Assembly: GCF_000497125.1 (NCBI RefSeq)
Contig: NC_090596.1
Coordinates: forward strand, 1,798,001-1,862,000
DNA length: 64,000 nucleotides
Reading direction: 5' to 3'
DNA from: Spironucleus salmonicida
Lineage: Eukaryota
Position numbers and translations under genes: made by a program. Numbering within the stretch: position 1 is the stretch's first letter; each line of letters opens with the position of its first letter. The notes beneath the pieces are model-generated. The model did not search any database. It saw only the letters and a program-made list of their open reading frames with translations, and was not told the origin of the DNA. Below, piece after piece: positions 23,237 through 52,087 of the stretch.

Positions 23237-23244
23237 GGAATTTT

Positions 23245-26589: not shown

Positions 26590-26630
26590 TATGTGATAGA
26601 AATATTTATTAATATATAATATAATATTTA

Positions 26631-27716: not shown

Positions 27717-27774
27717 TTATCCTTTATTATTTACTATATATTATTTATATTTATATTTTTGCTTTTCAAAATTT

Positions 27775-28584: not shown

Positions 28585-28595
28585 ATTAAAAAATT

Positions 28596-29489
28596 TCACT
28601 TTTCCAAAAAACTTGAGCAGTTGTTGGGGGTAAGTTTTCTTGAAACCTTATTCAAATTATACTAGTAACAGTCAGGGCAGTTTTATGTTGCTTTAATACC
28701 GTTAAAATTTCGCTACATACATTTTGTGTTACTTTCTGGAGTTATTGTTGATGAAACATTGTGTTGTCTATCGAAATCGAAATTTGGATTATAGGTGCCT
28801 ACACCTGGTTTGAATTTCGTTTCTTTTAAATCAGCAAAGTTTCCAAAAGATGTTTATCTTCCATCATTTAAGTGGAGATTATGCACAATTTTACCAGTAC
28901 TCAGAGAGTCCGTTTTTGTTAAATATTTACCAGGCCCAGGGCCAAAATAGTTTTTATTCTCATCAAACGCTTTAATTTTTATTTATTTTGTTTATTTAGA
29001 TGAACTTAGCATATTATATTTATCTCTTGTGACATCATATTAACCAGGTCCAACCAATAAACCGTTTGTCTTAGAAAAATCTCTATTTTTATCATATCTT
29101 GAGGAGAGTGAAAATCCTGGGCAAGAATTAATCATCCCTAAGTTGTATTAGGCTACTGGTGTGTATGCTTATGGTCCAGGTGTTAATGATGTCGTAGCTG
29201 GAAGTCTAGTGTTAATAGGTTTAAGACTTTATGTAGTCTAAATATTAATCTTTTTCGTTTTAAATGATGGGACATGTTATGCTTATCTTTTACTTATTGA
29301 TTGTAAATCTGTTATTTAAAAACATGAATCCTATTTAATATTAAGTACTGAATTTTATAGCAGCATTAATTCACTATTAAGATTTATAGTAGGTGTACTA
29401 GATCTTAAAATAACTGAATTAATAGTACTCATTATTACTTCTTTATCATTCTATTCGTTAATTAGTAATTAAGAATGCGGTAAATTCAT
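28596..29489 (-). CDS. Sperm-tail PG-rich (SHIPPO/STPG) repeat axonemal protein (297 aa)
   Basis: Repeats TPGPQAY, VGPGQYD, GPGPGKY, PGVGTYNP; ends AAG-TGA. Confidence 0.8.
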
Positions 29490-29512
29490 TTTATATCTAT
29501 TATAATTATATA

Positions 29513-30712
29513 TCACTCATTAATATTAATAATTTATAAAACTTTTTTCGAAACTACTTCTCCTGCTTCGGTTAATTACGCATAAATTTCATCACCGAAG
29601 TTATACTTCCATACTATTTTGCCTAAAACTTAGACTGACATTTCTTCTAAATCTTTTTGCAATCTTCTTTAAGCCATACCCCCGTCCCAACCATATGCAC
29701 CTAAGACAAATCCTATTTTACCTTTCATTATTCCTAATTGCTTTAAAAAACTAACCCCTTCTACTACACCTGGCATTGCATCTCCATTAAGCGTTGGTGT
29801 AGCCAAAATAATACCAACACAATCTTATGCGTTTAATGCAAGCTTATCGAGTAGGTTATATTTCATATTTAACATTACTACTTCAATTCCATGTGATTTC
29901 AGCACTTTAGCTACTAAATCAACCGCTTTTTCTGTAGTTCCGTACATAGTTTCATATAATGCAATAAATTTAGGCTATTTTTAAATTGACCCAGTAAATT
30001 TGTAATATAATTAAGCAGATGAGTGCACATTTTCCTCTCCTACAGTTTAGGATCCATAATCTGGTAGTATTTATTAGAATTTCATCGATTCAAACCATGT
30101 TAAATATTATTTTAATTAATTTGGAACATGAGTAAATAAGTTTGAAACAAAATAAAGTTATTATTCATATAAAACTTCATAATTATCTATTTAATCTGCA
30201 GTATATTATGAAAATAAATCACCAGTAAAAACTATTTTATCATATTAGAGATAAATAGCCATTGAATCAGGCCATCTAAGTAAAGGTGTTTATTTAAATA
30301 GCAATATATTGTTACCGGTGTTTAGGGAGTAATTACTATCCACAATATCGTAGTATAAATTTTTATAAGAAGGTTTAAACGTAGTGATAGTCTCAAATGA
30401 TTTCCTATTTACCAATAATTATATTTATGGAAAGTTTATAAGAAAAATACTTAATGCACTCATAATAATAGGGTCGATTCTGTTTAAGATCAATGATTAA
30501 ATGAATTAGCCATTAGCTAGTTCTTTTACTTTTTTGATAAACAAATTCATAAACAAAGGGGGAGGAAGATTAATAAGACATATTGATTTATCTAAAAAAA
30601 TATATGAATTATAAGAGATTGCTTTACCACCATATAAATTGTAGATATTCTTCTGGTGGTAGTCTACTGACTAAATGCGATAAATCGTATCAGTAAATTT
30701 ATGTATATTCAT
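29513..30712 (-). CDS. Flavodiiron (A-type flavoprotein) homologue with degenerate diiron site (399 aa)
   Basis: SYNSY, TPLLRWPDSM, VFTGDLFS in the metallo-beta-lactamase domain; flavodoxin motifs YETMYGTTE, ATPTLNG, GAYGWDGG; ends GAG-TGA. Confidence 0.9.
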
Positions 30713-30754
30713 TTAGTAGTAATAAGTATAATATTATAATAAATATATATCATA

Positions 30755-31375
30755 ATGAAATATCATTACAAAATAACAGGCGTAACAGAGTTAATGTTTT
30801 ACTTAAATTATTAATACCTGAGTTTTATACCTAAAATTAATTCATTTTATCCTTCAGGTAACAAAACTAAACCTGTGATGATAAAAATGGAAAATGTATT
30901 AGATGCTTAATACCAATTTTTAGACATAAAATTAGGATGTCCTACATCTTCTCCATATTATAAATCATAATAATAGATTGAAAAAAATCGGTTTAAATGT
31001 TTATAAACTATTTAGGCTTAATAGTTTTTTCGTATTGTAAATTACAGTTATTAACATATTATTATTGGTAAATATGACTCTAGATATTTAAGTTATGAAT
31101 AAACATTATCTCTTATTAACTTATTTATTTCAAATAAACATATCCTAGGTACGATTATAAATTTATAAAATATGTTGTTAAAAATTAATAAAATTAATGG
31201 ATACTTTTTTGGTTCTAGTATACTTTTTTATACAATTTAAGATCATATATATGTAAAATTAATTGACTTCTAATAGTTTACTCCAATGAAACAAATAATC
31301 AATCCAAATGTATAAATTGGTATATATAATATAATTTAAATTTTAAAATAATTTTCTCATTGTTGCTTGGATTGA
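30755..31375 (+). CDS. Divergent inositol polyphosphate kinase (IPK family, 206 aa)
   Basis: MENVL, FLDIKLG (DxKxG), FFGSSILF (SSLL), VKLIDF in the canonical order. Confidence 0.75.
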
Positions 31376-34300
31376 TTTAATATTGATTATTATATTTACT
31401 GCTTCATTTCGCTTATTCTTTTGCTAACCAGATTATAAACATCTGTCAATTATGGATAGTTGTCCAAATTATCTTTTATAACTTGGAGACAATCTAATCC
31501 TTCTTAAAATAAAAATTATACTGAATGATAAAATATAGACATTTCTTGATCAATACCAATTACCAATTGTTTTAAATTAGGATACTTATAACGTAAAGTT
31601 TCGTCTTCCATTACCTAAATGTATTCATCAAAATTATTATTCATAAATATTTTTTCAGTTGTGAATATAGGTGTTTAGTCATTAAATTTTTAAAATAATA
31701 TTCCAGGGCCCATCTATACAGTAGGTACAAATATGCCAAAAAGTAATGATTACATTTAGTTAATTTATTATTCCTAAACTGGTGTAGATAAAGATGATCT
31801 TAAATTGTATAAATTGTTTGCTTATTCATATAAATTAATTGCTTATGTTATTCGTGGAGTAAAATATAATGTGAATTATTTAAATATTTATTCACGAATA
31901 ATATGTGAAGGTAGCGGCTAAAAAATCATGTAATATGTTACCAATTTTCCTGTAAAATTAGGTTCTTTCTACTAATTTTCAAAATAAGGTAGTTATGAGA
32001 TGAATACATGATTGTTTAATTATATTTTAAGGTTAAACACATGATTATATGCTGAAAAATTATTAACATAAGTATTTGATACTTGTTTCTGTGATTTTTG
32101 CTATATATGCGCTTGAGATTTAAAATAGTCTGAGAATTCTTTTATAACGTAATCAGATACGATAGCTGTTTATACTTAATTTTCTGTCTAGCTATAATAT
32201 TTAAATGGTTAAACTTCTTGTATAGAAATATAAAGAACGTCACCATATGTTTTTTTTCTTTCGATATAATTATCTGCCAAATTTAGACTTGTTTCAATGG
32301 TATTAGAATCTTCAATTTTTTCTTTTTTCTTTTGCTATTATAATATTATTTTTTTAACAAGGAATCTATTTTTATAATCAACTTCAGAAATAATTTAAAC
32401 AATTTTTTAAGGTAAAATTTTAATTCTTTATTATGTAAGGATATTTTTATAGTATTCTTAATAATAAATAGAAAGAAAATTTGAAATATCCGAGATTCGT
32501 TAATTTTATTGATAATGGTAAATATATTATTTATCATTAAATGAATCTGGTAAATATTAACCGTGTAATGAAATTAGATAAAAAAGGCCAATTAGACGTT
32601 GAGAATTATTAATAAAGGTTTTGTTAAGTGTATAGATTGCTAGTAATTATTTTGTTTCCTTTTTCTAAATAATTTCCGGTAAAGATTGATAATAATATAA
32701 TATCAAATCTTTAATTCCTTAATCTAACAAGAATACCAATTCATCTAATCCATAAATTTTAAATATTTTTTAAGATTGTTAAAGATAGTAAAGTACTTTT
32801 TCAAAAGCTTTTGGATCAGTATATTAAATATACACATCATTCTCTGTAATCTGTACTATGTTTTATGGAGTAATAGTCTAAATAATTTAATTAACAATAG
32901 GGTAAAAGCAGAATTAATTTTCTGTTATTAAATTTGTAATTTATCCAATTTATCCATAAGAGTATAAATATTAATTTAGTGGAATAGCATAATGATAAGA
33001 TATAAAGCTAGCCATCTAAAGGTAGCAATATGCTAGCTCGATTTGATAGTCATTTTCCTTCAATAATTTAAAAATACGTTCAAACATATCTTTCTTAAGT
33101 CCCACTTATTGCTCATATACTGTAATGCTTTTGAAATAACTTTCTAATAGCTTAGGGACATCGGTGTAATCCTTTTAATTAACTCGTACCGTAGCTTCAA
33201 GGGCTTATTTGAGACCTTCTTCAAAGCTAGATTTTAGTCTAATTACTATAGATGTTAACACATTATTGAAAGTTAGCTACAAATTATCTTCTCTGAGATC
33301 TATAGGTATAATAAGTCTTTCAAATTATTAAAATAAAATTTGTTGCTATTCTTTATCTGCAAATAACATTATTTTGTCTTACAATCTACTATTTGCATTA
33401 AAGAATGAGAGGTCTAATTTTGGAGAAGCTTATTTCATAACAACAAATTCAAATTCAATTGAACATTATATTAACTACAGAATACACGAAAAATCTTGTT
33501 AATGATGTTATACAAATAAATCCCATATTTATTTTTAAATACATGAAAATATATCTTAAAAACTAAGTCTAGTATTACCTCGAAAGTAATCAGCTGTTCT
33601 TTTATATATATCAGAGTATTATAATGATGAAGAGTTAAAAGATTTAGAAAGTTGGTCCCAACCACTAACCACCAAGATATTATTTTATTTTAATTATTTA
33701 CAGTCAATAAATTATCTGAAATTGTAATATAAAAGATTTGATATTTATAATTGAATGTCCAAATTAATTTATCTTAGTTTTAGCAATTAGGAAAAGCTTT
33801 GAAAATTAAGCCAAAGATCTCTAAATTCAATATTTTGTATTTATTAAAGATAATTTCTAAAGTAAAATATAAAATCTTATATTAAAATATTTGTCTCTGA
33901 TGTATCAATCATGAAATATAAGGAATTAATTTCTGGATGATATTAATTGTCCAAGTCTAACTAACACGGAAGAGTTTAAGATGATTTATTAGTTTCATTA
34001 TCAAAATTTGATTTTTAGTTAACAATTTTTTCGAGTTCTTATTCCTTAAAATAATTATATTTTTTTGTTGTTTAAACGCTTTAATTAGTACTTTCACAGT
34101 TTTATATATAATTATACTGCTTTAATTCAATTTTTGATAGATATAATTTTAAAGATGTAATTAATGGTAAATCTTAATGTACTTTTTTCTCTGTAACATA
34201 ATACTATAAAAAATTAATAATTTTACAATTGTCTTCTGACAATTAAATACAATCTGAGTCAATATCTATAACATTGGTTTAAAATAAGTCTATAATAATA

Positions 34301-37300
34301 TAAAAATCTTAAATTTAGAAATATTATATATTTTCTTTTTCAGTGTAGAAGTTATTAGTGAGAGAGAAATCTATAAAGAACACGATAAGCTTTTGGAAGA
34401 ACTTCTGGTCTGCGATAACGTTTTAGCTTATAGTCTCGCTGCTTTTTATGATGAAAACTAAGAACAGGTAAATATTTAGGTAAGCGTCCTTTGACAGGTA
34501 CGCAATCCCTATGTACTTGATTGTCGACTCAAGGAAGCTGAAGAAAGCGTTCATGAAATTGGTGAACTCGAGATTGAGCAGAAGACGGGGTGACACGTTA
34601 GTATCGTAATAAGTTTTCTACACCAGGTCGTTAAAAAATAGCGAGGTCAGAAACTGCTCCACCATCTGCGACTGATACAGCACAGCAGATTCCCGAGGCG
34701 ATGCAGGATCACGCAGCTAGTACTATACCAGCGCTTCCAGGATGGGGAAAAATATATAGGTGAAATGATTGTATGATTTGAGGATAATCTATGAATTAAT
34801 ATTTTCAAAACTCACAATAGGAGCATTGAATATTTTAATATATTTAGCGAGACTAAGGGAAAAGTAAGGTAATTAGTCCAATGAATCTCCTTCTGGGGTA
34901 TACACAAATTAACTAAAAAAGATAAACGAGAACTGATATAAATTAGAAAAAGACTATTATAAATCTATATCATTTTTGTGAGTGTCATCCAGTGAGAAAA
35001 TTAACTATGATTAATAAAGTAATGTCTAAATCATCTATTCTTGATATTACTAGATAGTAATACAGTATTATATAAGCTGAACTGTGAAATTAATCTATGA
35101 AATAATTGAATCTCTATTAAATTTTATAGTCTAGATAAATGATGCAAGACATCCTGGTTTAAATAAAAGTTACTATTAAACCTTCGTCGCAGATTCTTTT
35201 ACTTGGTTTAATATGCCTTAAATAGGATCTGTCTCTTTATCTACGGAAAAGATTCTATGAACATGCGAACTCTTCGTTGATCCATAATAAAGTTATAAAA
35301 AGCGATATGCTTAATTTTATTAAACTGACAATATCACATTTTCAGTACGTATTAGTTTCCCGATGCCTAGACATAGCTTCATATGCAGCAGATAAACATC
35401 TTTTTTCTGATTTGTATCTATAAACACTATCTTATCCAACAGACTAATATTATTAATAAGTAATATCATAAGACTAACTACAGACTAACTGAGTTGTGTT
35501 GTTAATTTTTTCTTCCCGTTAAGATATTGTTAAATTTACATAAGTATAGAATGGGTTGAATTAGAATATTCAAAAATAAACTTCTTTACAAGTTGCTAAC
35601 TATTTTAGGAACTTATGTATAATTACGAAAATAACATTGCATTGTTTAATAACTACTAGACTGATATGTATAGATCTGCCCGTTTACTAGATATGGAATA
35701 ATCACCTAGGTTACTAATATTGCTTGCTAGGTCAACACGAACTTTAATAACTGGAATAAATTTCTATGTAAGAGATGATTTTTGAATCCCAGGACTATTT
35801 TCCCAGTAACTAAGACCCAAACTTTGTACAATAATTACATCTTCTTCTCGTTTGAGATCTATAGTGAAGGGAAAATCCTTTTTATTTTTAAGACGAAGAT
35901 ATCCTATTCCAACTTTTCGAACTACTTTACTATCTTTTAAGTAGAGTAAATTTGGATCATTGACAAGAAAATTATCCGTATATGATTAATCAATCGATTG
36001 AGTATATTTAGCTACGCTGTCTGGTTCTGCAGATGAAAAAGATAAATGATATACTGTAAAAAGGATATGGTATTCATTTGATAAGATTACTGGTAAGTCA
36101 ATTTTGAAAGTATCACACAGACGTGATGACTTTTCATGATAGGTTGCGGATGACAGTTACGAAAAAAGTTTACCATCTGATGCTCGTGCACATATACTCT
36201 TAAGGTGCTCGTTTCCACGTTTAAACTCTACCTTTACAAGTATATTACGACATGAACTAGAAGATAGATTAGTAACATTAAGGGACAGGATCGAAAGGTA
36301 AAGATTATTAATAATATTTCTTATCTAGTGTGTAGATTAGTGTTCCAACTTACTATATACGTGAAGATATCGCGGGAAGTCCTACACTGAACCTTAGAAA
36401 TATAAATTAAGGGACTAGTATCTAGATTAAATTAAAAGCTTTTAAAGATTCTCTGATGATCTAAGCGAATTAAAAGGCGATATACTTGATGTAGGAAGAT
36501 ACTGTTCTTAAAACTAGGAATATAATTAAAATTACTGGATGCCATTCTTTAGAGATATGCTACCATCACTAAGAAAACACATATCAAACTAAAAATCTAA
36601 TGGTGCTGTTTTGATACTTTACCCTTTTTCTGCTTGTTCCTAGAACGTTGCAGTGATAAGATCATTTGCAACATTCTTCATTTTTGGCTTAAAAAATTAG
36701 AATGGTGCAGGTTGTTGCAGCTGTAATGGGAGGATAGTAATGAGTTCAGAAAGATTTGGAAAAAGGTGACTATATCCAATATACACTAACTGCCGTAGTA
36801 CCCCCACTTAATCGGTATTATCATACGATTCTAATATTAGATGATTCTATTCTGGCTCAAGATGATGTGTTTAATGGTCTATCAGGTCAAATGGAGACTA
36901 AAAACTAAATTTTTTGCAGATTTCAGGGAAATCCATGTTATCGAAAACCTCATAGAATGATTCTAAGTTACGCCCATAATCACGCTCTACAAAAGATACC
37001 ATATAAAGCTATTTAAGGTTTAACGCCTAGTCAATATCAATGACAAATGTTTGCTATTACTCAGTATGGTAGAACCACTCTGAAATTTATTTAAATTATC
37101 CCTATTCTTTGAAGAATATTGCAAATTTAATATAAAAATTTAAAAATGTATCTAGAGCAATTTACACTTTTCGTACTCGAAAACATATACTGAGGGGAGC
37201 ATTGAAACTTAACTAGTAGTCTTGATACTTATCGAATATAGATGTCTTGTTATTTATAATTATTTAACTAAGACACTTTCCTGAATGCATGATAGGAATA

Positions 37301-37491
37301 TCACTTATTTACTTTTATAGAAATGGTAAGATCTCACACGATGAAGGAGTTTTTCGTAAAGGAAGCTATTCTTATTTATACAAATAATCAGGATCATTAT
37401 ATTAATTATGTTAAAATGCTGAATACATTAACTCAGTTAGTAACTTACTAGAATTTAACATAACTTCATCTAATATTAGTGAATCTGACAT
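31357..37491 (-). CDS. DOCK-family Rho/Rac GEF (DOCK-C/D, zizimin-like; ~2044 aa)
   Basis: DHR-1/C2: SSATYHEKSSRLCDTFKIDLPVILSNEYHILFTVYHLS; DHR-2: RLIGLFYLISLHG, YISIQEVQPF, FGIFVPTVQMGP; single frame. Confidence 0.88.
34379..34755 (-). repeat. 377-bp inverted repeat, copy 1 (inside the DOCK CDS)
   Basis: Exact reverse complement of 47987-48363, checked line by line. Confidence 0.97.
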
Positions 37492-37683
37492 TTTATTCGA
37501 TATATAAGGGATTAATATATATTAAGAATTAATAAAAACTTCAAGTTATTTAATTAAAATTAAATATATATACCAAAATAAGATCTATAATAATTGTAAT
37601 ATGTATGATAATTATGAAATATGGAAATTTATTCTTATCTGGTCTTCATACATCTTTATAATAAATTAAATATAAATAAGATA

Positions 37684-40600
37684 TCACTTATTTGAATTCG
37701 TTAATAAATATTATTAATATACTTAGCTATGTTATAAAACAAATGGCTACATGAATGTAATTACATCTAAATTATCTTTTACTAGTTATTAGATTTCATT
37801 AGCATAATATGTGTGAATTAATAAGCAAATTATATTGTCATCAGATGGTTAATAGATTAACACAATAAAATACAGAACTTAAAATAACAATTTATCAGGT
37901 TTACATACTTAAGCTAAGGTCTTTGCTATTTATCCAGATAAATGATTAATTTAAGAGGTATACGTGACTAATAACACCAATGCTCCTAAATTTTGAGATT
38001 AATACTATGTGTACTTCTATAATAATTAATCAAATTCATCGCTTTATATTACTAATTACTTTTACAAAATTAACTACGTATAAAAAATATAAATATATTC
38101 ATTAGGAATCTATGAATTTACTTAAATTTAAACATTAATTAGATAATTTTATACATTACAATTCAGTTGCAATAATATATAGCAAAAAACACCCAAAAAT
38201 GATTAGTTCTATAGATCTCCATCTTATTACATAAAATTAGATATATATGTACTTACCTCAATTGTATGGGATATGTCAATAAATAATGTTTAAAGTCTTA
38301 TTTATCCTTAATATAACATGGATAATTATTCTTAACAAATTTCAGATTCAATGCCATAAGAAGAATATGACATGTACTTGTTAAATGACTTATTAACCAT
38401 TTAAATTAAATTAAATGTCCATTATAAAATACTTTATAAGTAAATTTCCTTAGATTCAAGCTAAGAAGTACCAGTAATGATAATTTAAAATGATGATAAA
38501 ATAGGTTCTAATTCGTTTACAGTTCTTCTAGTTTTAATATCCAAAGCTTAATTAAAAATATTAATAACACCATCTACTATCTAATTGTCATTAGTAGCAA
38601 TTAACATGCTGGCATAACATGAAGCTACATTTATAAATTAATATTACTTAATATAGTTAAATTTGTTAATCAGTTTCAGTGTTTATGTAACATGCTAACT
38701 AGACATTAATGGATTCTCAACGAACATATATTAAATAGCAGTAAACACAAGTTTCTATTACTTTAATATATACGAGTTGCATTTTTAATTTTCATCGAAA
38801 GTATTCTTTTCTTATTCAAATAATGGTGTATTGAGGGTATTAAAAAATTAAATAAATGATATGTCGACCTATGTTTAAGAAAACTAAGAAGCAAATTTAG
38901 TTAGCAATTATGTTATAGATATAATCAACGAATCAATAATTGAATGTAATTCATCAATACGTTCTTAAGCCAGTAAAGTAAATATACTATTTATAAATAT
39001 TTCAGTTTATGTTGAGTTAAACTAACATAAAAATAGCGATAATGATTCTATAACTTAGCCAAAATATTAGATAAAATCTTAATTTTAAGCTAAGGAGAAA
39101 ATCTGAGAATTGAAAGTAAAATATTCCTTAATATAATAGTCTAAATATATGTGAATCTAATCCTTATCTAACAATGATTAATCAATTAAAAGAGTTATGA
39201 TTTTAAGAATAGAATACTTAATCTGCAAGTTTTAATTTTAAGAAAAATGCTAAATTATTGTTTTGATAAACACTAATTTATCTTCAGTAATAGTACTATT
39301 GCTTTAAAGAATGTTATTCAAAAGAGTTAGAAAAGTAATTTAAACATATTAATCACATTAGATTATGTTCTCTATAACTAAAGTTAAAACATTGAATATA
39401 ATCTTGTTAATTTGTTAATTGTTTTCGGTCGAAACAATAATCGAATTAAAACTATAAAGAATCCAATATGCTTCTATTTACGTATTCATAGAAGATAGAA
39501 ATTCGACTAGTATATTTGCATATAATTCTTAATCAGAATCCAATTATTCTGTATAGAATAGTTATTTAATGATTTCTATTATTGAAATTCTAAATTTTAC
39601 GTCATTTTTATGTAACTAAATATAGTTATTTATAGTAGGTAGTGCTATTTCTTATATTTAACCTAAATACATTGAGAAAATACTATCAGATATTGTCTAA
39701 TAAGATGAATTTACGTCTATCTTTTAATATTTTTCAATATTATCCATATCATCTTCAGAAATATTATTAAGGCTGGGATAAATAATAGTTATAAGAAGCT
39801 TTTAAGAATATTCAAAATATTTTTCCTCCTAAAATAACGTATCAGACTAACTTATAACTGAGGAGCAGAGATTGATTCCAATAAGAAAAAGTTATTAGTC
39901 ATCATTGCTTTATGTTAGTATAAGTGTAATAAATTCAAATATTTGGTCAATATAATCTGAAAATAATTCTGGTATACATTCGATCATTTCAACAAAACAT
40001 TCAATAGTCTGCTTGAATGCATTACGATTTGAAAATGCAAAATTAGAAATTTTTTAAAGAATTTAAAATAATCCTGCTATAAATTATTATTATAAATCAT
40101 AATCAACACAGTCCTCGTCATCATTAGCATATTATGCACTCATAAGAATATTACTAATACCTAAGAATGCATAGGAATTTATTGTAGGATCTAAAGATTC
40201 ACATAGTACGGTAAGGTATTATAATATAAATGATTTAGTGTATCTCCATTTCGAATTTGTTAAGCTCCATATGATAATAGAAACGTCAGAAATCTTTGAA
40301 GTTGTCAAAGCTTAATCTATATATTGCAATAACAAATTTATATTTTAGTTGCATCTAATAAAATTAACAGCAATTTCGCCACAAAGATCAGCTAAAATTT
40401 TTGAGAACGAACGATTATTTGATAAAAGTTGCAAAATGATTATTAAAAATTATTAAGTGATATCTTTGTTTTAGCATCTATCAAAAAGAGAATCACCAGA
40501 CTTAATTAGCAGATTCTTCCTAATAATGGTGCAACAGAAGGCGATAACATCATCATCCCCAAGTTCAAAGAGTTTAATCATATTGACTAAATACTCATCA

Positions 40601-40710
40601 GGAAATTGGTCTAAATATTAAAAGTAAGTTGTAGTAGCTTATATTCTAAGTTCATTATCTTAAGATTTAATTATATTATTCATCATGTATTAAAAACTCC
40701 CGAAGTCCAT
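37684..40710 (-). CDS. Importin-beta/karyopherin family HEAT protein, paralogue A (~1008 aa)
   Basis: IBN-like N-terminus DNELRIQATTTYFQYLDQFPDEYLVNMI..FCCTIIRK..LADLCGEIA; ends AAG-TGA. Confidence 0.75.
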
Positions 40711-40779
40711 TAAAATGAAAACCTTATTGTTAAATTATTATATATTTAAATTTAAATCTCACTTTATTTTTCTTTTCTT

Positions 40780-42606
40780 ATGGAGTTAAACTTTATAAAA
40801 GATAAAACCGAGCCATCTAAAATAAATTTTATTAAGAATGAACCTCTACAACGTCAATAAAATGGTATATTTAAGAAAGAGGATTTCTTAGACCTTCAAA
40901 AAATCGGCGAAGATCTATCTTAGGAACTAGCAAAAATAACGACTGATACACCTCAAAAATAAGATAGTCTGTTCTCTGAAGATCTATTGGAAACTATGGT
41001 TGGAAGCGAAAAAATACAGCGCAACCTATCCAAAATTGGATATAAAAATGCTACAAATATACAAAAAATGTCATTTGGAAAAATATAGAATAAGTGCGAT
41101 GTTTTACTTAAATCTTCAACAGGATCAGGCAAGACACTTGCTGCACTGCTACCACTTGCTGACCGATATGTAAATGTCACAAGATAATTGAAAGTTCTAG
41201 TTTTATCACCTACAAGAGAACTATCAACTCAATCTGCTGACTTAACATAAAAGCTTTTAAATGGGTCAGAATGCGTAGTCTCATAAGTAGCTGGAGGCTA
41301 AACACGGGATAAAGAAAAGGCTTGTTTGCGGAAAGGTTAGTGCTTTTTATTTTGTACAGCTGGTCGATTATTAGATCATATTGATAAAACTTAGTGTATA
41401 ATGAGTGCAATGAGAGCAGTAGAAGTAATTATTCTGGATGAATGTGATTAGTTATTATAACAAGGAGCGAAAGTAACAATTTAGCGTATTTTTGATATTG
41501 TACCTAGAAATGTTTAAAAAATATTTTTATCTGCCACTATTTCAGATGCAGTTTAGTAATTATCAAGATAATACTTAATTAATCCTTAGGTGATTTAGCT
41601 TTAATCATCAATTTTTTAGAATTTCTCTTTGCCTAATAGTTTACACTAAACTTTCACTATTGTACCAACAAAAGCTAGATTAGCTTGTTTGTTTGGATAT
41701 TTATCTACACTTTTTTAAGATTAATCTTAGTAAACAAAGTAATTTAAATTAAATGAAGAAGAATTATCATCGTACTCTGAGGTATCATCTTCTATATCCG
41801 ATAGTTTACCTTCCTAGACATGTGTTTTAGTATTTGTTGAATCCAGAGCTGTATGTGATTTCCTTCTTGATTTATCTGGTAGGTTAAGAAATAGCGTTGC
41901 TACACTTTTACCCCCTAATTTATTTAAATTACATGGCGGGATGAATCAAGAAGATAGAGATTAAGTTTGGAAAAAATTTATCTCTCATAGTGGTATTTTA
42001 TTTGCTACTGATGTGGCAGCTAGAGGCCTTAATTTAAATGTTGAAAAAAGTGGAGTTGATGTTGTTATACATTATGAAGCTCCAGTTAGTGTTGAGTAAT
42101 ATATACATAGAAGTGGTAGAGCTGGTAGAATTGGTAACAATGGATAGACTATGTTATTTTTATAAAACAATGAGGTAAAATTTTTAGACATATTGATCTC
42201 TTAAACTAAATAAAAAGTCTAATTCATTCCTGCAGATTTATTAGGTAAAGGATCATTAGGATTTAGGCTAGGGTATCGGGCCTATGAGAAAATCTAAAAT
42301 GAGATTGAAAAATTTGAAAAAGATCCAGCATTCTTCGAACTAGCGGCTAAAGCATTTTTGTAATATATGAATGGTTATTCTGCCAGGGATTAAGAGTGTC
42401 GTTCCGTATTTAGACCTAGTGCACTTCATTCTGGTCATGTTGTTAAAAGTTTTGGTTTGAAGGAGGCTCCAAGAAACGTATCTAAGGCGGTTATTGAGCG
42501 AAGTAAGGCTGCTAGTAATAATAAGAAAAATAACCTAGTAGCAATAAATGGAAGAAGGGGTACAAAGGTAGAAAAAGGTACGTATGACGAAAGATAAGTA
42601 ATGTGA
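40780..42606 (+). CDS. DBP7: DEAD-box RNA helicase DBP7/DDX31 (608 aa)
   Basis: STGSGKT, SPTREL, TAGRLLDH, DECD, SAT, LHGGMNQEDR, TDVAARGL, YIHRSGRAGR; DBP7-type EKACLRKG and C-terminal LHSGHVVKSFGLKEAP. Confidence 0.9.
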
Positions 42607-42618
42607 TATTAATACTAT

Positions 42619-43143
42619 TCACTAATTGACACTATTTGTTAAAAAAATATTAACATCATCTGCATTTTCGCTGAAATTAATATGATTATCTTATACACTA
42701 TGACACTATCGCGATTATTTAATATCTGCGAGAGTTTTAACAGTCATTCCACCAAACTCTAAAATTGGTAACTCAAATGTATGAATCTATCTATTTCTTA
42801 AATTTAAATAAAGTTGGTTAGAGTTAATATTTCTAATAGGAACAATTTTTTCTTCAATATTAGACTATCGTGTTTTCTTTGGAGATGATACTTTTACTTA
42901 GCTATTAGTATAAATTCTTCTTTTATATAAGTTGAAAGAATAGTTTGCAGAGATAAAAAGCTCAGGTGTTTATTGATTACGATATCTTTTAAGTGCTGTT
43001 AAGTTTCTTTCAATTTTAAGAATATCGTTAATTTTTAAATGTTCTTCACACTTTTGTCCATATTCAGGCTTAAAATCTACTACAAAACCTGTTTTCTCCC
43101 CTTCAAATAGATCGTCTAAGTTATCTTTAGAATTAATGTCCAT
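42619..43143 (-). CDS. Hypothetical protein (174 aa)
   Basis: TGA-free frame; ends TAG-TGA. Confidence 0.6.
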
Positions 43144-43252
43144 TTTGCGGAAAGTTATATAATATAATTAGTAGCTTAATAAATTTTACTAAAATACAAA
43201 TACAGTTATTATATATAATTTTAACATAATATAATATTTCAATCTAATCTAA

Positions 43253-43810
43253 ATGATTTTCATATTTACCCAAGTGTTTATCAAAGATGATAAAGCGTTA
43301 TTTAAGATAGACGCAGGGTTTAATTTCTCAAAATTAGCAATAACTTCATTAATAGACTAGTCTTTAGGTTTAGTTGATTAAGGATTTTTTAATTTTAACC
43401 GAACTAAACTAACTGGATATGACTGTGTTAATGTAACATATACAAAAGGTAAGGCACCCAAAGATGTTTTACCTGCAACTGGTTTTGTTTCTTATAAATC
43501 ATCATCTCTTTCTGGTCTAAAAGGTGAATTATTCTAAAATCCAACATCTATGGCATGTACTAATACACTATTAATTAATTTACCAAAATGGAACTCTAAC
43601 TAGTAGCAAAAATCAATTGGTATAGCTGTGTTTTTGATTATAGCAATAATTATAATTGTCTTAGGTACAATGACGGCTATGGTGTCTATAAACGACGAAG
43701 CAATTGAAGAAGTCGATGATACATTACTATATAATTGTCCTGAGATGGCTGTATGTCCAGAAGCATTTTTAAACGACGAACCTTGGGAAGCAGGCGCAGA
43801 TGATTTCTGA
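43253..43810 (+). CDS. Single-pass membrane protein with acidic C-terminal tail (185 aa)
   Basis: Short hydrophobic N-terminus, TM span IGIAVFLIIAIIIIVLGTMTAMV, tail ...EPWEAGADDF. Confidence 0.7.
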
Positions 43811-43842
43811 AAAATATATTTACTTTTATTTATAAAATCACT

Positions 43843-44556
43843 TCAACACATTATATCCAATATTTAAATTTAATCGTTCTTTTTTGCCAAATCTCTGGCC
43901 GATGATCCAAACTCGTTCTTTTATTTTATTTCAGCCTTAAGAATACTATAACAGTCACGGTGTTTACCATCTATAGCATACATTAATGCATTCCATCCAT
44001 AATTGTCCTATAACTTTATTTCATATTTTAATAATAGACAAATATCAGCAAACCCTCGTTCTGCTGCCATCATGAGGGCAGTTTTACCTCCTATATATCT
44101 TTACTTTTATTCTTTTAATAAATACTATACACATTTAGTTTAGTGATTTTCTACAGCTATCATTAATGCTGTCTTATTATAAAATTACTTATTTAAATTA
44201 TATGACTTTTACTAAAGATATTAAAGATTTTCTTAAATAAATTACAGATCTCCCTATTTAGCTGCTTCAAAAAATAACTAAGAATGTATAAAATTAAATT
44301 CAGAGGTACCAGTGGTAAGACACTATTATAAATATTATTTAATTTAATTAAGTTTAAGTATTTATGCTAAATTTAGGCACTGTGATATATTTTATGGCTC
44401 ATGATATGCAATAAGTTATACTACTTCTATTCTACCAGATTCAACAGCAGCAAACAGTAATTCCTTATCTTCAGCTAAAAATATAGGCAATGATTCTCTA
44501 ATAAGTGTCATAGGTGCTTTGCTCAATTTAGATTTGAATGACTTTACACTATTCAT
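43843..44556 (-). CDS. Ankyrin-repeat protein (Protein 21.1-like, 237 aa)
   Basis: KTALMIAVEN, GKTALMMAAERG, GWNALMYAIDG repeats. Confidence 0.9.
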
Positions 44557-44612
44557 CTGAAAGCTTTATGAATATAGTAATATATTAATTATAAGATAAA
44601 TAAAATAGTTTT

Positions 44613-47600
44613 TCACTGTTAAATAAAATTTTTTCCAGCAAAAGAAAGCTCCTCAAAATTAGTCTATATAATATTCTAATTTTCAATAATAATTAATTTG
44701 ATCTAAGCTAATAACTATTAATCAATATTTTACATTCCGCTAACTGCATTAATTAAAGAAATAACGCTCTTATTAACTAAAAATCCGCGCTAAATCATGA
44801 TAATTAATGCTTATATAAACATCAAACCCTCAAATTAACTTAAATTAATTTGAGTTAATATTTTTTCACTTTCATCCACTAATTGTACACTAATGAAATA
44901 AGCTAATAGGAACACTGCAGAATCCCCATTGAAGATTAAATTATTAATAATAAATACCTAACTCGCAGCTTATTCAAATTAACGCGAAAGCTCAGTATTT
45001 TCTAAAATAATCAAAGTTGCTAGTTGCGCATCTAATGGAGCTGCATACTCGCAAACGGCTAATCTTTATGCAGTTAGTGTTATATTATTTTATATAATAG
45101 ATTATTTGCACTCTGTAATTTCGTATAAAGGAAGCATGAATATGTTCGAGAACGAAACTTATTCAGATAGTTCTTCGGACACTTATATAAGATGAGCTTT
45201 GACTTAATCAAAATTAGAGAATGTTGAAAATATGCGAACAATTATATTAATCCGTTCTGAAATTAATTTCACGTTTTAGATTTCTTCATTAATACACTAG
45301 ATACGCTCTGATCTTTCCAAATCCTCATATTCTAATTCATCTATCCAGTGAGCTATCGAGGATATTGCTAGCTTAATTAACTGTTGAACAGCAGTTAAAA
45401 TTATATCTGTAAATAATGGTCCAATTGATTAATTTTCACCATTCCACTACAGTAGTTCCTCAACAAAATATGATAAAGATAACATTATTTTAGCTACTTC
45501 TTCACTACACCTAGAGATTTCAGGCTTTAAAATAGAAATTTAAATAAGGTTAGTAATATAAGCTAAAATGTTATCGACTGTAGAATTATTTATCTTCATG
45601 ATTCTGGGAACTAAAAAACATACATTTGATATATCTGTAAATGAATATGTAGAGAAAACATTTTTCTATGCAAATGCAGATAAAATGGCCTATAAATGTT
45701 CTGCCATTCTTGTGGGTATAGATTTAATCAATTGTGCAATTGCCTAATAAACATTAGATTATTAAGATCTAATATGAGAATTGAAAGATGGCGAAGATTC
45801 AGCGCTTAATAATGAATTTTTATCTTCATTAAATAAAGGAGTTTATATAATATGGATGAAAATGAATATTATTTAGTTTAAATCTGAAGATTCAATATAA
45901 TTTGAATAATCCTTAACGATAAGGCCTAATGCATTAATTAAAACATCCATAAACATGTGTATTTCATCAGATATTGGAGATTTTATTAGATTAACAAATG
46001 ATACAACAACTTATTCTGATACTTCTTCAAACTCTAGATGATAGAAAGAAATAATTTTACTAGTTGCAGTTGTTAACGCTGAGAAATACTTAATTTATTA
46101 TTAGCTCATTGACAAAGTGAGTTACATTTATAATTCTAAAAATTTAAAGACTATAGATTTTAATTAGTCTAAAATCTATTCTTTAAGTACTCGTGGATTA
46201 GATTTTTCCAGTAAATGACATATAATTTATATACACTAAGTTTACAGAATAATATTATTCGATAAATATAAAGTCTATATTACTTAAATTGATAAAGGTT
46301 AGAGCTTGAAAAATTATTGGGGTTTGACAATTTCTAGCAAAGTCGTTAATATTTAAACCGCACCAATGTGCGTAAGAGGTTACTAATTAACAAAAATACT
46401 TGGTAGTACCAATAAACATTCTGTAACCACCTACTCAATAACTTATACTTCATGTCTATAATAATTGATTAGATGTTTTATTGCTAATTCTGCTCTATAA
46501 ACTATAATAGGCTGTGGAGTTTGAAGCTGTTTAAATAATTATGGAATTAAAGTAGGAATAACTTGATTGGCATTATATGATTAACAGCAAATAATAATAT
46601 CAAGAATCATAATAATAGCATATGAATACTACCATTTCTCTTATTTTGATTTAGAAAATAACTAAAGACTTGGTAAAGCAATAGAAGCAAATTAACTACC
46701 AAATATTCTTAAAAGAGCGTCATAAACTACAGATCGAACCGAATTAGGGTCTTCCAAAGATTCAGGATCTTCTATAGATAAGTAATCGCTAACTTCTTCA
46801 TCAGTAATAAGTAAAAATACAGGCAATAAGCTTTCAACGACCATTGTAACAATTTCTTAAAATTATTCAGGTGAAAATTCTATAAAAGACATATCACCAG
46901 AATCGGTAATACTAGCTAAATAATTTGCACCGATTTTGTACAAATCCTCATTTTAAGGACCAGATTACAGAAGAGCTTAAATTAGTTAAATTATAACAGG
47001 TAAGAACTAGCTTATGACCTCTGCGCATAAATCTAATAAATCAGAGAATATTTCTAATGCCTTCAGGAACTAGCGTCTGCATTCATCGATTTAGGAACTC
47101 ATAAAATATAACTTTTATATCACCACGTCTAGTAGCTTTATCTAGAGGTCACCCGCAAGCATGTCATCAACTGAATTAACAAATTAGTTACTAATTAGCA
47201 AAGTCTGTATTGAACTGATTCCGTGAACAATTGAATCAAACTGATTGTCAGCCAGCGACCTCTCAATGAATTCGAGAATTTTTGGCATACCAAATTGGTT
47301 AAGCTTCTTGATATTAGCATTAGAAATAACAGATACAATATGGGCTGCCTCGACGCGCATAACGTCGTTTTATTAGAATGCAGCATCGACAAATTCTAAT
47401 ACAACTGGACAATTTGGAAGCATCAATGCAGCTATCTCACCAGCCACATCTCCCAAAGAGCGGGCAAGCGGTTATTGCGAAACTGCGAGCTTCTACAGCA
47501 CAGCGACTATAAGCTGTTACTTTGCGTTTTCATCTACACGGTAAAATGCTGACTTTGGGCCTTGCATAGTGATTTCTTTGCGCAAGATAATAGAACAGAA

Positions 47601-47780
47601 GAATACAAGTTCGTCTAAAGAAGGATCCTGCTATTAGAATATTTAGATCATGTTTAAAATAAATGATTCAGGCTAGTCCTTAAGTAAATTAAAATATGCT
47701 TCAGATGCTTATGTCCTCAGTTATTAGTCGAAAGGCTATTAGATGGACTAAATAAGCTACGTAAACTGGGGTAAGTTCAT
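44613..47780 (-). CDS. Importin-beta/karyopherin family HEAT protein (importin-5-like), paralogue B (~1055 aa)
   Basis: DQQLRTQASEAYFNLLKDQPESFILNMI..FCSIILRK..LGDVAGEIA; acidic loop DEEVSDYLSIEDPESLED; ends CAG-TGA. Confidence 0.8.
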
Positions 47781-47986
47781 AAATGAGCAAGAAGTGGAAC
47801 ATTAAAAGTTACTATTATATCAAACATAATATATAACTAGAAAACATTAAACGGAGAATATAAATTTTATTGAATATAAAATAATATGATTTTTGGTTAA
47901 CAATATATTTTTAATTTAACATATTTTATTTTATAAATTAATTATTCACAAATTAGATATTATCTTGGTCTATAAGATATTTACGA

Positions 47987-48363
47987 ATATTTTTCCCCAT
48001 CCTGGAAGCGCTGGTATAGTACTAGCTGCGTGATCCTGCATCGCCTCGGGAATCTGCTGTGCTGTATCAGTCGCAGATGGTGGAGCAGTTTCTGACCTCG
48101 CTATTTTTTAACGACCTGGTGTAGAAAACTTATTACGATACTAACGTGTCACCCCGTCTTCTGCTCAATCTCGAGTTCACCAATTTCATGAACGCTTTCT
48201 TCAGCTTCCTTGAGTCGACAATCAAGTACATAGGGATTGCGTACCTGTCAAAGGACGCTTACCTAAATATTTACCTGTTCTTAGTTTTCATCATAAAAAG
48301 CAGCGAGACTATAAGCTAAAACGTTATCGCAGACCAGAAGTTCTTCCAAAAGCTTATCGTGTT
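47987..48363 (+). repeat. 377-bp inverted repeat, copy 2 (DOCK gene fragment between the importin and PPP2R3C genes)
   Basis: Identical to the DOCK sense sequence of 34755-34379; flanks retain only decayed similarity. Confidence 0.97.
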
Positions 48364-48433
48364 TTTATAACCTTTCTCACACAAATAATATCTAAGTCTA
48401 TAAAATATACACATAGTAAAAATAATATAAAAA

Positions 48434-49771
48434 TCATTTAATCTCAAAGCCTGGATTATTCAATTCCATACAGCCTCCTTAACATGCATTTTCGCGTTCA
48501 TTCAAACTCTAACTTGTCATCAGATATCTTACCATAAATTCACTTGAATTACTTTTTAAAATATCTGATAAATATATCTTAGATTTATTTTATGGTTTGA
48601 TATTTTCATATATTTCATCGATAAATGCATCTTACGGAATCGGGATTTAGTCATAGATATCTAGTAATTACTAGAATACACCTTTAAATGCTAGGTTGAT
48701 ATCTTATTAGCTTAAGTATCCTTTTTAACTTTCAGCATCTAACACAGAGAAAACAAAATAACCAGCTCCAGTATTGCAAGGAAAAGTATGTGTTAAAGCA
48801 TAATCCATATACCCACGGAAATCAAGTTAATCGTCATATGTTTATTCAATAAAATACCATGATTTAGCAAATACTTGGCTAGGGGGAAATGGTAAATTAT
48901 TTATATTCTTAATTGGTAAGAGTCCTGTCGTAGGATCTGTTGCCATAGAAAATGCATTATACACGTTTTCAAAACACTAACGAGAAAACCATGGTGATTA
49001 AGAGTACGTACCGAACTACCTAGGCATAGGAAGTGTAGTGTTTTATGAGAGTGCAGCATGCAAATATGGTGAAATTAAAAGATTTTTAACAGATATTTTA
49101 TTAGTTTTCTTAGGATCTAAGAAAAATTAAATTGACTTTACAGCATAACACATATACATAGCCTCCATAATATCATTGAATATATTACCAATAAATGATT
49201 TATAATTATCTTAAAGAAAATCTTACAAAGCTTATGAAGTAATATAACCAGGTTGTTCACAATATGGATCTATATTAAATCTTAATACTGCCGCATCTAT
49301 AATATGTCTAATAGCCTGAACAAAATCATTTTTGAATATAGCCTTCTACTTTTTAGATAAAGTGGGATCAACTGTCGGCAATAAAGCAAAAAGTTCTACT
49401 GTTAGTAAATCTTCGAAAACTGGATTTAAGCTCATTAGCTTTTCCTTCAATATTAAATAAGTATCATAACCAAAAATTGCTCCTTGTGTATTTTTATGAA
49501 TCAGCAGTTCAACTTCATCCGCATTGAGTGAGGTCAAATCTTTAACAAAAGAATCCATTGTATTAATTCTACAAATATTTATAAACTCTATTAGTTCATT
49601 AGATGGTTACTTGACATGCAGAGGCTAATAGAATTTTGGAATTTCAATTAAGTCTTACTTCTCAGTATCAACTAATGACAAATATTAAGTAATATGTTTA
49701 CTATAATCTTCATCTGAGTTTATGGTAGCTTCCTTATTTTGTTTAATAAATTATAATAAGCAACTTTCCAT
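48434..49771 (-). CDS. PPP2R3C: PP2A regulatory subunit B'' gamma (PPP2R3C/FASS/TON2-like, 445 aa)
   Basis: YMCYAVKSIQFFLDPKKTNKISVKNLL, PWFS, LDFRGYMDYAL, YFVFSVLDAESQKGYLS, DEIYENIKP. Confidence 0.85.
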
Positions 49772-49785
49772 TAATTTAGGCAAAG

Positions 49786-49825
49786 ATATGAATTATATGA
49801 ATTATATGAATTATATGAATTATAT
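49786..49825. repeat. Tandem 9-mer (ATATGAATT)x4 in a divergent intergenic region
   Basis: Four exact copies plus a partial copy between the PPP2R3C and TFB2 start codons. Confidence 0.85.
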
Positions 49826-49899
49826 TATTTATATATTTTATTATAAATAAGTTATATAATAATTATTATATGCTAAATATATGATAAATAATTTTAATA

Positions 49900-51369
49900 A
49901 TGCAAGGATTTTTATCTAATTTAGATCATGACTATATATAAACATTGTTATAGGATCCTACATTTTGCCTACTATTATATAAATTATGTTCTGATTAATG
50001 TCAAGAATTTTTAATTTCAATATTATTAACTTATTCATTTGATGAAACGAAATTATTAACCGAACTTGATAAAACATGTAATCATTTTTCCTAAAACTAG
50101 CTTCTAACATAATTTGGTATTATTAAAAATTTCCCAGACAAAGTTATAATAAACGTATTATTTCTTAAAAATTTAGATATTGCGTTATCTAATCCAACTC
50201 CTCCCAATATTCTTAATATTAACGATTAATGGTATGATAAATATGATGAATTTGCATAAATATAATTGTCCTAAGTATTTTTAAACGACAAAGACCCTTA
50301 TAATATAAAAGAATTATTATAAATTGAACCACGAATATTTGCACTATCAGGATTAAGAGACTAATTAACAACCCTGTTTAGTAGAATGTTTTGCGCAATT
50401 TAACTAAGAAAGAAAGAATTTCTATTATTTATTCAAAAGTCTACTCCTGAAAATATATCAAGACATATTTAGGATTACAAATTTGATATTAGTTAGCTTT
50501 AGTTTTTACTATTTCTTGTATATATTGTTTAGTAACCTATGTAAACGTCAATTAGATTAAAATTAGTTGACTTTAAAATTATTTTCCCTTATGTGCATTT
50601 TTTATCAGTAATTTCATTATTATCATATAGAATTACACCACTTAAATTAGTTATTATTAATTTATCTGATGATATAACACTGTTATAATACTAATATGAA
50701 AAAATTTAATCAATCTATGATGAATTTTAATACAAAATACCTAAACATATTACAAAAAGGTGTCTTACTGTTGAATCAACAGGTAGAATTTATTGCTAAC
50801 GTAATATAGATGATTCAATACCTAAATTATTAGATTTTTTCTGCGAACTTATTTATAGTTTACCACACATGTACGTATATGAATTAAGAAGAGATATTTT
50901 AAGAAAAAGTGGAATTAAAAGTCAACTTATATGTAAATTTATTTAAGAAAATTTAGTTCATGGGAGATAATTCCCTGTTGATTTAGTAAATCTAATTAAT
51001 GTATGGGAAGAAAAGGATGTAGAAGAAGGAGATTAATTAACATGTAAATTAGAGTTTAAATTTAGAGATGATTATAAGTAGACTGATAGACTTAGTTACG
51101 TTCATATATTGAAATATTGTATAGATAAGAATTGTGCATTAATGTATAATGAACTTTATTATACTAAAATTATTAAATAAGCAGACGAGCTTATGGATTT
51201 ATATAAAAGACCATAGACGAAGAAAATTATGGATAGGCGTGAAAAATTAGAAAATGTGCTCAATGAATAAAAATTGAATGATTCATTAAGATGGATTATC
51301 ATTAAAAGTTAGTTTTTACAAGTAGTTTAAAATGAATTTGACTAATTTTGCAAAACATAAATAAAATGA
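49900..51369 (+). CDS. TFB2: TFIIH subunit p52/Tfb2 (489 aa)
   Basis: LTVESTGRIYC, LLDFFCELIYSLPHMYVYELRRDILRKSGIKSQLICKFI, FPVDLVNLINVWE match the Tfb2 C-terminal signature. Confidence 0.8.
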
Positions 51370-52087
51370 GCTATTTTTGTTTAATTTTATAAGTTTATAT
51401 ACTAGAAATACCTATATATTATTATAAGTAAATTATAGATATTCTTTCTATTTGTAAAGATTTTTAAATTATAATCAAATAGAGATTCATAGTATAATTA
51501 TTAGCATTTAATAGCTTAATGAGAAAAATAATATTTCATGTAAGAATACTAAATTATTATTTAAAATACATTTTATATGAAATAGTTATTTGAACTATAA
51601 GTTTCAATTGTATAAATTTTCATTAATTATTTTTATTATAAGTATTAATGCAAAATCATCAATGTTAACAACATAGATAAAGTTTATAAATATAAATAAA
51701 ATTAAGTATTAAGTTTATAGTAAACATTACTTTATACTACCTTAATTGTGTTACACCATATTAAAGTTTCATAAATTAGCCCATTCCCAATTAAATTTGA
51801 TTGTAACTGCTTATTATTTATTAGTTTATGTTTAATATATTTAATTAAGAAAATATTGTTAACTAAAATATTAAATTATAATTATATTAAAATTATAATT
51901 ATTAATCACTCAAATTAAGAATAATTAATTTTATTCATAATTAATCAAAATTTTATTACCATTCAGCTGATAATAATCAATTTAATCTTAAAATATCTAT
52001 TTTAATTATAAGTACAACCATCAATAAATCTATATTTCTATGGTAAACTAATCACATAATACTCATTATAAATACAAATTTAATACA

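What the first reader, a model, noticed from the sequence alone, without database searches (positions are those of the whole stretch)
34379..48363. Perfect 377-bp GC-enriched inverted copy of an internal DOCK segment, bracketing a 13.2-kb block: possible invertible switch or gene-conversion pair
Seen: 34379-34755 (mid-DOCK, between DHR-1 and DHR-2) equals the reverse complement of 47987-48363 with no mismatch. The flanks keep only decayed similarity (e.g. a 1-bp indel right at the edge), suggesting an older, larger duplication whose core is still being homogenised. The core is GC-enriched (34/60 at 34681-34740 versus 12/60 at 34021-34080). Copy 2 sits in a TGA-free frame in DOCK phase from ATG 47783 to TGA 48547. 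Inference: recombination between the copies would invert 34756-47986 and split DOCK into a DHR-1-only protein and a DHR-2 protein starting at ATG 47783, i.e. a shufflon-like switch for a Rho-family GEF. Alternatively, minus-strand read-through from PPP2R3C across copy 2 would give RNA antisense to DOCK mRNA. Caveat: with a single stop codon, open flanks this long can arise by chance.
Basis: partly seen in the sequence, partly recalled or inferred. Interest (0 to 1): 0.8.

Follow-up and report, generated by a model that had tools for sequence, protein, structure and literature searches.

The report
GC-rich gene-converted fragment of DOCK gene
A 377-base piece from the middle of a protist's DOCK signalling gene has an exact mirror-image copy 13 kb away, and both are far richer in G and C than their surroundings; this looks like two copies that keep correcting each other with a G/C bias, as many other repeats in this genome do, not a gene switch.

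Summary
The repeat is real: 377/377 identical, inverted, a double-depth unit in DNA contigs. In this intron-poor, code-6 diplomonad genome, DOCK third-position GC is 78/126 inside the repeat and 423/1972 outside, and the step sits at the repeat edges. One flank keeps decayed homology, so the pair is old yet identical. Best reading: ongoing GC-biased gene conversion between DOCK and a non-coding orphan copy (inferred, 0.72). It is not DOCK-specific: 30 such inverted pairs lie in 864 kb sampled, with GC higher inside at 88 of 100 edges. The scan noted this class before on other DNA of this genome. The switch idea has little support. No invertase was seen, the flanks are non-DOCK, and the open frame is chance-level. 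Putative RNA contigs of one study show un-inverted DOCK. Antisense silencing lacks its machinery (no Dicer or Argonaute, PMC3916229). Against my reading: 4 of 4 other GC islands tested had no second copy. A rare flipped allele is not excluded.

The parts
31357..37491 (-). DOCK-family gene, 2044 aa, intact and intron-less under code 6; apparently single copy
   Evidence: (library protein P0001, 2044 aa, identical)
36025..36315 (-). DOCK-C2 (DHR-1) match
   Evidence: Pfam PF14429 E 2.7e-18
31360..33300 (-). C-terminal region expected to hold DHR-2; weak match to DOCK10 at about 32401-32619
   Evidence: E 0.027, only hit; no Pfam hit
34379..34755 (-). copy 1: DOCK codons 913-1038, GC3 78/126
34314..34378 (-). 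eroded 3' edge of the tract; decayed homology to 48364-48431; first 12 codons GC3 5/12, next 12 codons 1/12
34756..34791 (-). 5' GC3 shoulder of 12 codons (6/12, next 12 codons 1/12); no significant homology to the copy-2 flank
34756..47986 (.). 13,231-bp spacer: DOCK 5' half, two importin-beta-like paralogues, a DEAD-box helicase, an ankyrin protein and small genes
37684..40710 (-). HEAT/importin-beta-like paralogue 1
   Evidence: 22% identical to paralogue 2, E 1e-34; weak TPR_IPO5 hit E 0.012
40780..42606 (+). DEAD-box helicase, SPB4-like C-terminal extension
43843..44556 (-). ankyrin-repeat protein
44613..47780 (-). HEAT/importin-beta-like paralogue 2
   Evidence: weak HEAT hit; putative RNA contigs end at 47775
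47781..47986 (.).
47987..48363 (+). copy 2: orphan DOCK fragment between two genes, identical to copy 1
47783..48547 (+). TGA-free frame through copy 2 (254 aa); judged a chance frame
   Evidence: no Pfam hit
48434..49771 (-).
   Evidence: putative RNA contig 48434-49744 in X6

Best explanation
A piece of DOCK was once copied, inverted, into the gap between two genes 13 kb away. The copy is non-coding and has eroded from its ends. The remaining 377 bp keeps serving as a template for homologous repair with the working gene, in both directions and mostly without crossover. Each new difference is erased, and G/C wins more often than A/T. Selection on DOCK removes harmful changes, so GC piles up mainly at silent sites and both copies stay identical. 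Shown: identity, two copies, the GC3 step at the edges, the eroded edge, and that such pairs are common. Inferred: ongoing conversion, its GC bias, the scarcity of crossovers, and that the copy has no function. It is one short member of a genome-wide class.
For: GC3 78/126 inside vs 423/1972 outside, Fisher p 5e-21; GC2 unchanged (0.254 vs 0.237); GC1 slightly up (0.437 vs 0.324, p 0.011); best change-points 34791 and 34345 against homology limits 34755 and about 34346. About 51 excess G/C third positions built up while arm-to-arm divergence is 0/377 (95% bound 0.8%). Decayed, gapped homology on one flank (0 of 400 nulls) and GC3 shoulders of 6/12 and 5/12 codons falling to 1/12 each beyond suggest a once wider tract. 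In 864 kb of G000, 30 inverted pairs of at least 150 bp and 95% identity were found, 23 of 30 at 99% or more and 28 of 30 above 36% GC. GC is higher inside at 88 of 100 usable edges (of 120) and steps from 0.28 to 0.44 within 50 bp. A second pair starts at window 9118, and its host gene has GC3 0.56 inside vs 0.16 outside. Literature: duplicated regions of S. salmonicida average 44.7% GC vs 30.7% (PMC9509377); metamonads lack NHEJ and rely on homologous recombination (PMC8516963, passages); palindrome arms gain GC by biased conversion in primates (PMC8981503, abstract and section 17). Codons preferred by highly expressed genes give GC3s near 0.4, not 0.6, and would not stop mid-gene (PMC1805757).
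Against: No outgroup DNA, so the direction of change is not polarised. No close relative of this DOCK segment was found (22 other hits, all on DHR-1 only). 117 of 194 GC islands in the sample are not mostly inside a local repeat, and 4 of 4 tested genome-wide had no second copy, so duplication is not the only present correlate of GC islands. The 5' flank shows no significant homology (86 of 400), and the shoulder p-values are modest (0.027 and 0.094). A simple two-arm model needs G/C to win about 0.86 of conversions (0.80-0.90), above the primate 0.7, which predicts only GC3 0.39. So either the bias is unusually strong or something else adds to it.
Confidence: 0.72

Rival explanations
1. The DOCK segment was already a GC island (for example a break or allelic-recombination hotspot), and a recent templated insertion copied it. 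Identity then reflects youth, not conversion.
For: GC islands without a copy exist: 4 of 4 tested. A breakpoint-duplication origin was proposed for another locus (e1-7142109, not checked by me). The 5' flank has no homology.
Against: A fresh copy would not leave a gapped, decayed 65-bp flank (0 of 400 nulls). Its ends would not be expected to fall on the GC step, as they do here and at 88 of 100 edges.
Confidence: 0.1
2. The copies do recombine, but the GC gain comes from GC-biased mutation or repair synthesis at often-repaired DNA, not from biased resolution of mismatches.
For: The bias needed in the simple conversion model (about 0.86) is high. Orphan islands exist.
Against: GC stops within about 50 bp of the homology limit, which fits a process bound to heteroduplex. 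Biased conversion is the established process in palindromes (PMC8981503).
Confidence: 0.08
3. Invertible switch: recombination between the copies flips 34756-47986 at a useful rate. This gives a DHR-1-only protein (about 1038 codons plus a 60-codon tail) and a C-terminal protein (68-codon leader plus 1132 codons).
For: Geometry allows it, and both flanks are open in DOCK phase. Another locus of this genome was noted with a flipped spacer (e1-7274280, not checked by me). A cell with two diploid nuclei could tolerate a flipped allele (PMC9509377 for ploidy; tolerance inferred).
Against: Open flanks are chance-level (P 0.31 and 0.35). Leader and tail are the upstream DNA and antisense strand of neighbouring genes, not DOCK-like. 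No invertase among 30 frames. 29 other pairs share the anatomy. In X5 and X6 the contig over the core runs from the DOCK 5' flank into the DOCK 3' flank. Short homology disfavours crossover in yeast (recalled; only the title of Inbar et al. 2000 was seen, in a reference list).
Confidence: 0.05
4. Copy 2 is kept because read-through from the gene at 48434-49771 makes RNA antisense to DOCK mRNA, and GC is selected for duplex strength.
For: Copy 2 lies 70 bp past that gene's stop, in the antisense sense.
Against: No Dicer, Argonaute or RdRP found in S. salmonicida, and transcripts have clear boundaries (PMC3916229, passages). The same GC step occurs at pairs of every layout.
Confidence: 0.04
5. 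Assembly artefact.
For: The DNA runs laid come from one sample, which may be the assembly's source.
Against: The core has about double depth and both copy-2 junctions occur in contigs of X3 and X4. An artefact would not shift DOCK codon use exactly at the repeat.
Confidence: 0.01

Closest known systems
GC-rich duplicated regions and high-GC3s genes of Spironucleus salmonicida (PMC9509377, parts 1-2 of 3 read; PMC1805757, passages and section 15; PMC2874811, passages and section 7)
   Same: Duplicated DNA at about 44% GC in an AT-rich genome, with GC gain at synonymous sites and sharp shifts along the chromosome.
   Different: The 2022 count used matches of 2 kb or more; this arm is 377 bp, lies wholly inside one gene, and its partner is non-coding. 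In the parts read, the GC pattern is called hard to explain, and gene conversion is mentioned only for expansion of surface-protein families.
Primate X-chromosome palindromes with GC-biased arm-to-arm conversion (PMC8981503, abstract and section 17)
   Same: Inverted arms more than 99% identical, unique spacer, arms richer in GC than flanks, arm limits that move over time.
   Different: Primate arms are large and only about 5 points richer (46 vs 41%). Here a 377-bp arm is about 17-20 points richer, GC3 is 62 vs 21%, and the simple model needs a bias near 0.86 rather than 0.7.
Shufflons and invertase switches (R64 Rci/sfx, Hin/hix, FimB/E; recalled, no call)
   Same: Inverted repeats bracket a segment, and one repeat lies inside a gene.
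   Different: Those use short specific sites and a dedicated recombinase and swap functional cassettes. None of these was found here.
Inversions with breakpoint duplication (staggered-break model; lead from e1-7142109, paper not read)
   Same: A short inverted copy 13 kb away; inversion followed by flip-back could create copy 2.
   Different: DOCK is intact today. The model speaks to origin only, not to the GC step or lasting identity.

Membership tests
Inverted duplicates under GC-biased interlocus gene conversion | Arms near-identical (over 99%) | tested here: met
   377/377
Inverted duplicates under GC-biased interlocus gene conversion | GC raised in the arm, mainly at silent sites, ending at the homology limit | tested here: met
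Inverted duplicates under GC-biased interlocus gene conversion | Duplication older than arm identity implies | tested here: met
   decayed 3' flank, 0 of 400 nulls; 5' flank not significant
Inverted duplicates under GC-biased interlocus gene conversion | Shared derived AT-to-GC changes in both arms against an outgroup | not testable with these tools
   no relatives of G000 held; no orthologue covering the core
Inverted duplicates under GC-biased interlocus gene conversion | Biased resolution of mismatches measured directly | not testable with these tools
   needs marked alleles or population data
Shufflon / invertase switch | Dedicated site-specific recombinase next to the segment | tested here: not met
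   none among 30 frames scanned with Pfam; the rest of the genome was not searched for one
Shufflon / invertase switch | Short specific crossover sites | tested here: not met
   arms are 377 bp of ordinary coding sequence
Shufflon / invertase switch | Alternative functional cassette in frame | tested here: not met
   flanks non-DOCK, chance-level openness, no Pfam hit
Shufflon / invertase switch | Both orientations in the population | tested here: inconclusive
   only contigs were available; putative RNA contigs show the un-inverted order; contigs drop rare forms
RNAi-type antisense regulator | Dicer/Argonaute pathway present | not tested
   reported absent in S. salmonicida (PMC3916229); I did not search G000 for it
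DOCK family GEF | DHR-1 (DOCK-C2) | tested here: met
DOCK family GEF | DHR-2 catalytic domain | tested here: inconclusive
   DOCK10 as sole PDB hit, E 0.027; no Pfam hit; no alignment to P0019's DHR-2

The most novel reading that the evidence does not exclude
The orphan copy is kept by selection as a recombination switch. At low frequency it flips the 13-kb block on some of the cell's chromosome copies, so a subpopulation makes a DHR-1-only DOCK and a separate C-terminal piece. That would be a recombinase-free, flip-flop control of a Rho-family GEF in a eukaryote. Contigs cannot exclude a rare flipped allele.
Probability: 0.05. Interest if true: 0.75.

Novelty: new member of a known kind. Interest (0 to 1): 0.3.

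Why it matters
As a single locus it is ordinary for this genome. Its value is as a small, clean test case. A 377-bp non-coding copy appears to have rewritten about 51 of 126 third codon positions in the middle of a single-copy gene. The GC mosaic of S. salmonicida has been called unexplained in print (PMC1805757, PMC2874811). None of the 15 listed diplomonad papers (of 690 matching) contains the phrase 'GC-biased gene conversion', and searches showed none proposing it; that is not proof of absence. If the reading holds, conversion bias here is unusually strong, and this pair offers a short target for measuring it. The scan has already noted the class several times elsewhere in this genome.

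Tried and rejected
Standard code: longest frame 188 aa, rejected for code 6. Global alignment of 300-bp flanks found nothing above shuffles; only the edge-anchored test did, on one side. tblastn of DOCK against 44000-52000 found no DOCK remnant beyond the core. Genome searches with 19001-34300 and 34800-47900 were not scored, so distant copies of those stretches remain unchecked. One search used a wrong frame and was redone. Putative RNA runs X5 and X6 list no piece over 47776-47986 or 48364-48433, and their contigs stop at 47775 and (X6) 48434. This is one study, the RNA label is a guess and 69 pieces were not shown, so it is not counted as evidence of silence. No listed holder is on record as RNA. 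The core's RNA contig depth (11-12 vs 2-7 in other DOCK bins) was not used, since contig depth cannot rank parts of a gene. Stop-codon context (T before TGA 48547) was dropped: 14 of 94 long ORFs also have T there. The Atlas search of the DOCK C-terminus gave low recognition and unrelated TPR clusters and was not used. The identity of the 445-aa neighbour stays open. Trans-splicing by complementary halves, as in Giardia, was rejected because DOCK is one continuous frame through the core. Arm GC did not correlate with arm length or spacer in 30 pairs. PMC6334234 and PMC2869328 (passages) gave no usable statement on crossover versus homology length. No supplements were read; they may hold annotation for this locus.
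Full report
Setting. The window reads as dense, intron-less genes only under code 6. It is G000:C1:1798001-1862000 of a 14.5-Mb, 42-contig genome. This fits a diplomonad. Earlier scan notes call it Spironucleus salmonicida, and I use that species' literature as the nearest description.

Observation. 34379-34755 and 47987-48363 are exact reverse complements over 377 bp, and no third copy was found. In DNA contigs of runs X3 and X4 the core is a single 377-bp record at about double depth, and both junctions of copy 2 are present. Those runs are one sample that may be the assembly's source. Copy 1 is codons 913-1038 of a 2044-aa DOCK gene. DHR-1 is clear; DHR-2 is only weakly supported. The DHR-1 region had one match in the genome. 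Copy 2 sits between the start of an importin-beta-like gene (ATG 47780, minus) and the stop of a 445-aa gene (48434, minus).

Composition. The core is 43.5% GC in a 27% window. The gain is at silent sites: GC3 78/126 vs 423/1972 in the rest of the frame (p 5e-21), four-fold sites 28/52 vs 105/574, GC2 unchanged, GC1 mildly raised (p 0.011). The best change-points, 34791 and 34345, fall within about 36 bp of the perfect core, and the lower one matches the BLAST limit of 34346. Twelve codons on each side keep raised GC3 (6/12, 5/12), and the next twelve fall to 1/12 each. On the 3' side the flanks still align over about 65 bp with gaps (0 of 400 matched nulls reach the score); on the 5' side they do not (86 of 400). 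About 51 third positions have moved to G/C while the copies differ at none of 377 sites. I infer that the pair is old, was somewhat wider, and is still being homogenised.

How common. I compared the window with 80 further 10-kb stretches from four contigs, 864 kb in all. Of 59 matches of at least 150 bp and 95% identity, 30 were inverted pairs, 15 spaced direct rows (several from one array), 14 tandem and none between contigs. Median arm is 1.8 kb and median spacer 5.1 kb; the DOCK arm is the second shortest. Repeat DNA is 51% GC vs 30% outside. At 100 of 120 edges with unique DNA outside, GC is higher inside in 88, and the mean profile steps from 0.28 to 0.44 within 50 bp. A second pair begins in this same window at 9118. 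Among 36 ORF rows crossing repeat edges (of 414 ORFs of 300 aa or more, shadow frames included, ORFs across piece borders missed), DOCK is the only clear case of an inverted arm wholly inside a gene; one other candidate is cut by the sample's edge. Earlier scan notes report the same class on other pieces of this genome; they are unchecked notes and not counted as support.

Results against. Of 194 GC islands in the sample, 77 lie mostly in local repeats and 117 do not. I searched the genome with 4 of these and none had a second copy. They may be relics of lost partners or have another cause; I could not tell. A one-round, two-arm model needs G/C to win 0.86 of conversions (0.80-0.90), whereas the primate 0.7 gives only GC3 0.39. 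Repeated conversion among the cell's several chromosome copies could raise the effect (inference). No outgroup DNA was available.

The switch. A flip would give about 1038 DOCK codons plus a 60-codon tail, and a 68-codon leader plus 1132 codons (lengths only). With one stop codon the open flanks have chance probabilities of 0.31 and 0.35. The leader is the 17%-GC upstream region of the importin-like gene, and its ATG is 2 bases from that gene's opposite ATG. The tail runs antisense into the next gene. The homologous remnant is shifted out of DOCK phase by the 1-bp gap. No recombinase appeared in 30 frames. In two putative RNA runs of a second study, the contig over the core joins the DOCK 5' flank (136 and 46 bases) and continues into the DOCK 3' flank (121 and 36 bases), which is the un-inverted gene (the loose-end letters match the DOCK flank printed). 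Contigs drop rare forms, so a rare flip is not excluded. Antisense control lacks Dicer, Argonaute and RdRP in this species (PMC3916229, passage).

Mechanism. Shown: two identical copies, a silent-site GC step at the homology limit, an eroded edge, and a genome-wide class. Inferred: breaks in either copy are repaired from the other by homologous recombination, the main route in metamonads lacking NHEJ (PMC8516963, passages). Mismatches resolve towards G/C, selection filters changes in DOCK, and crossovers are rare on so short a homology (recalled from yeast). The origin of copy 2 is unresolved: templated insertion, erosion of a larger duplicate, or inversion with breakpoint duplication and flip-back (lead).

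Known context. S. salmonicida duplicated regions average 44.7% GC vs 30.7% (PMC9509377). Its GC mosaic was left unexplained (PMC1805757 section 15; PMC2874811 section 7). GC-biased arm-to-arm conversion is established in primate palindromes (PMC8981503). This pair works like those and meets the three sequence tests I could run; the outgroup and direct-bias tests were not possible. It fails three shufflon tests.

Verdict. Real, not an artefact, probably not a switch. It is a new member of a known kind and one of many in this genome, notable for being short, mid-gene and paired with a non-coding orphan. Interest 0.3.

Noticed in passing
window 9118-11288 and G000:C1:1794597-1796764: Second inverted pair, about 2.16 kb, 99.9% identical, 10.4 kb apart. 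It cuts the gene at 8646-11012 (GC3 0.16 outside, 0.56 inside); the outer copy holds an open but 5'-truncated version.
   Followed up: partly
L006:8200-9400, L011:3700-4700, L019:3700-4400, L020:1200-1900: GC islands of 0.6-1 kb with no second copy found in the genome; cause unexplained.
   Followed up: partly
window 46900-47780: The first 300 or so codons of importin-like paralogue 2, next to copy 2, have GC3 near 0.4 against about 0.2 further on; no partner seen within the window.
   Followed up: no
window 37684-40710 and 44613-47780: Two old importin-beta-like paralogues (22% identical) in the same orientation inside the spacer.
   Followed up: partly
window 2681-2907: Long perfect short-period tandem repeat just past the AdhE gene.
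   Followed up: no
window 3-2453: Bifunctional aldehyde/alcohol dehydrogenase (AdhE type), cut by the window's start.
   Followed up: no
window 43136-43810: Small plus-strand frame with a hydrophobic C-terminal stretch and no clear family, covered by putative RNA contigs.
   Followed up: no
G000:C3:1030002-1056568 and C5:692341-710852: A 10.8-kb-arm palindrome at 62% GC and a roughly 1.2-kb-unit tandem array at 68% GC; some arm-overlapping ORFs reach GC3 0.96.
   Followed up: no
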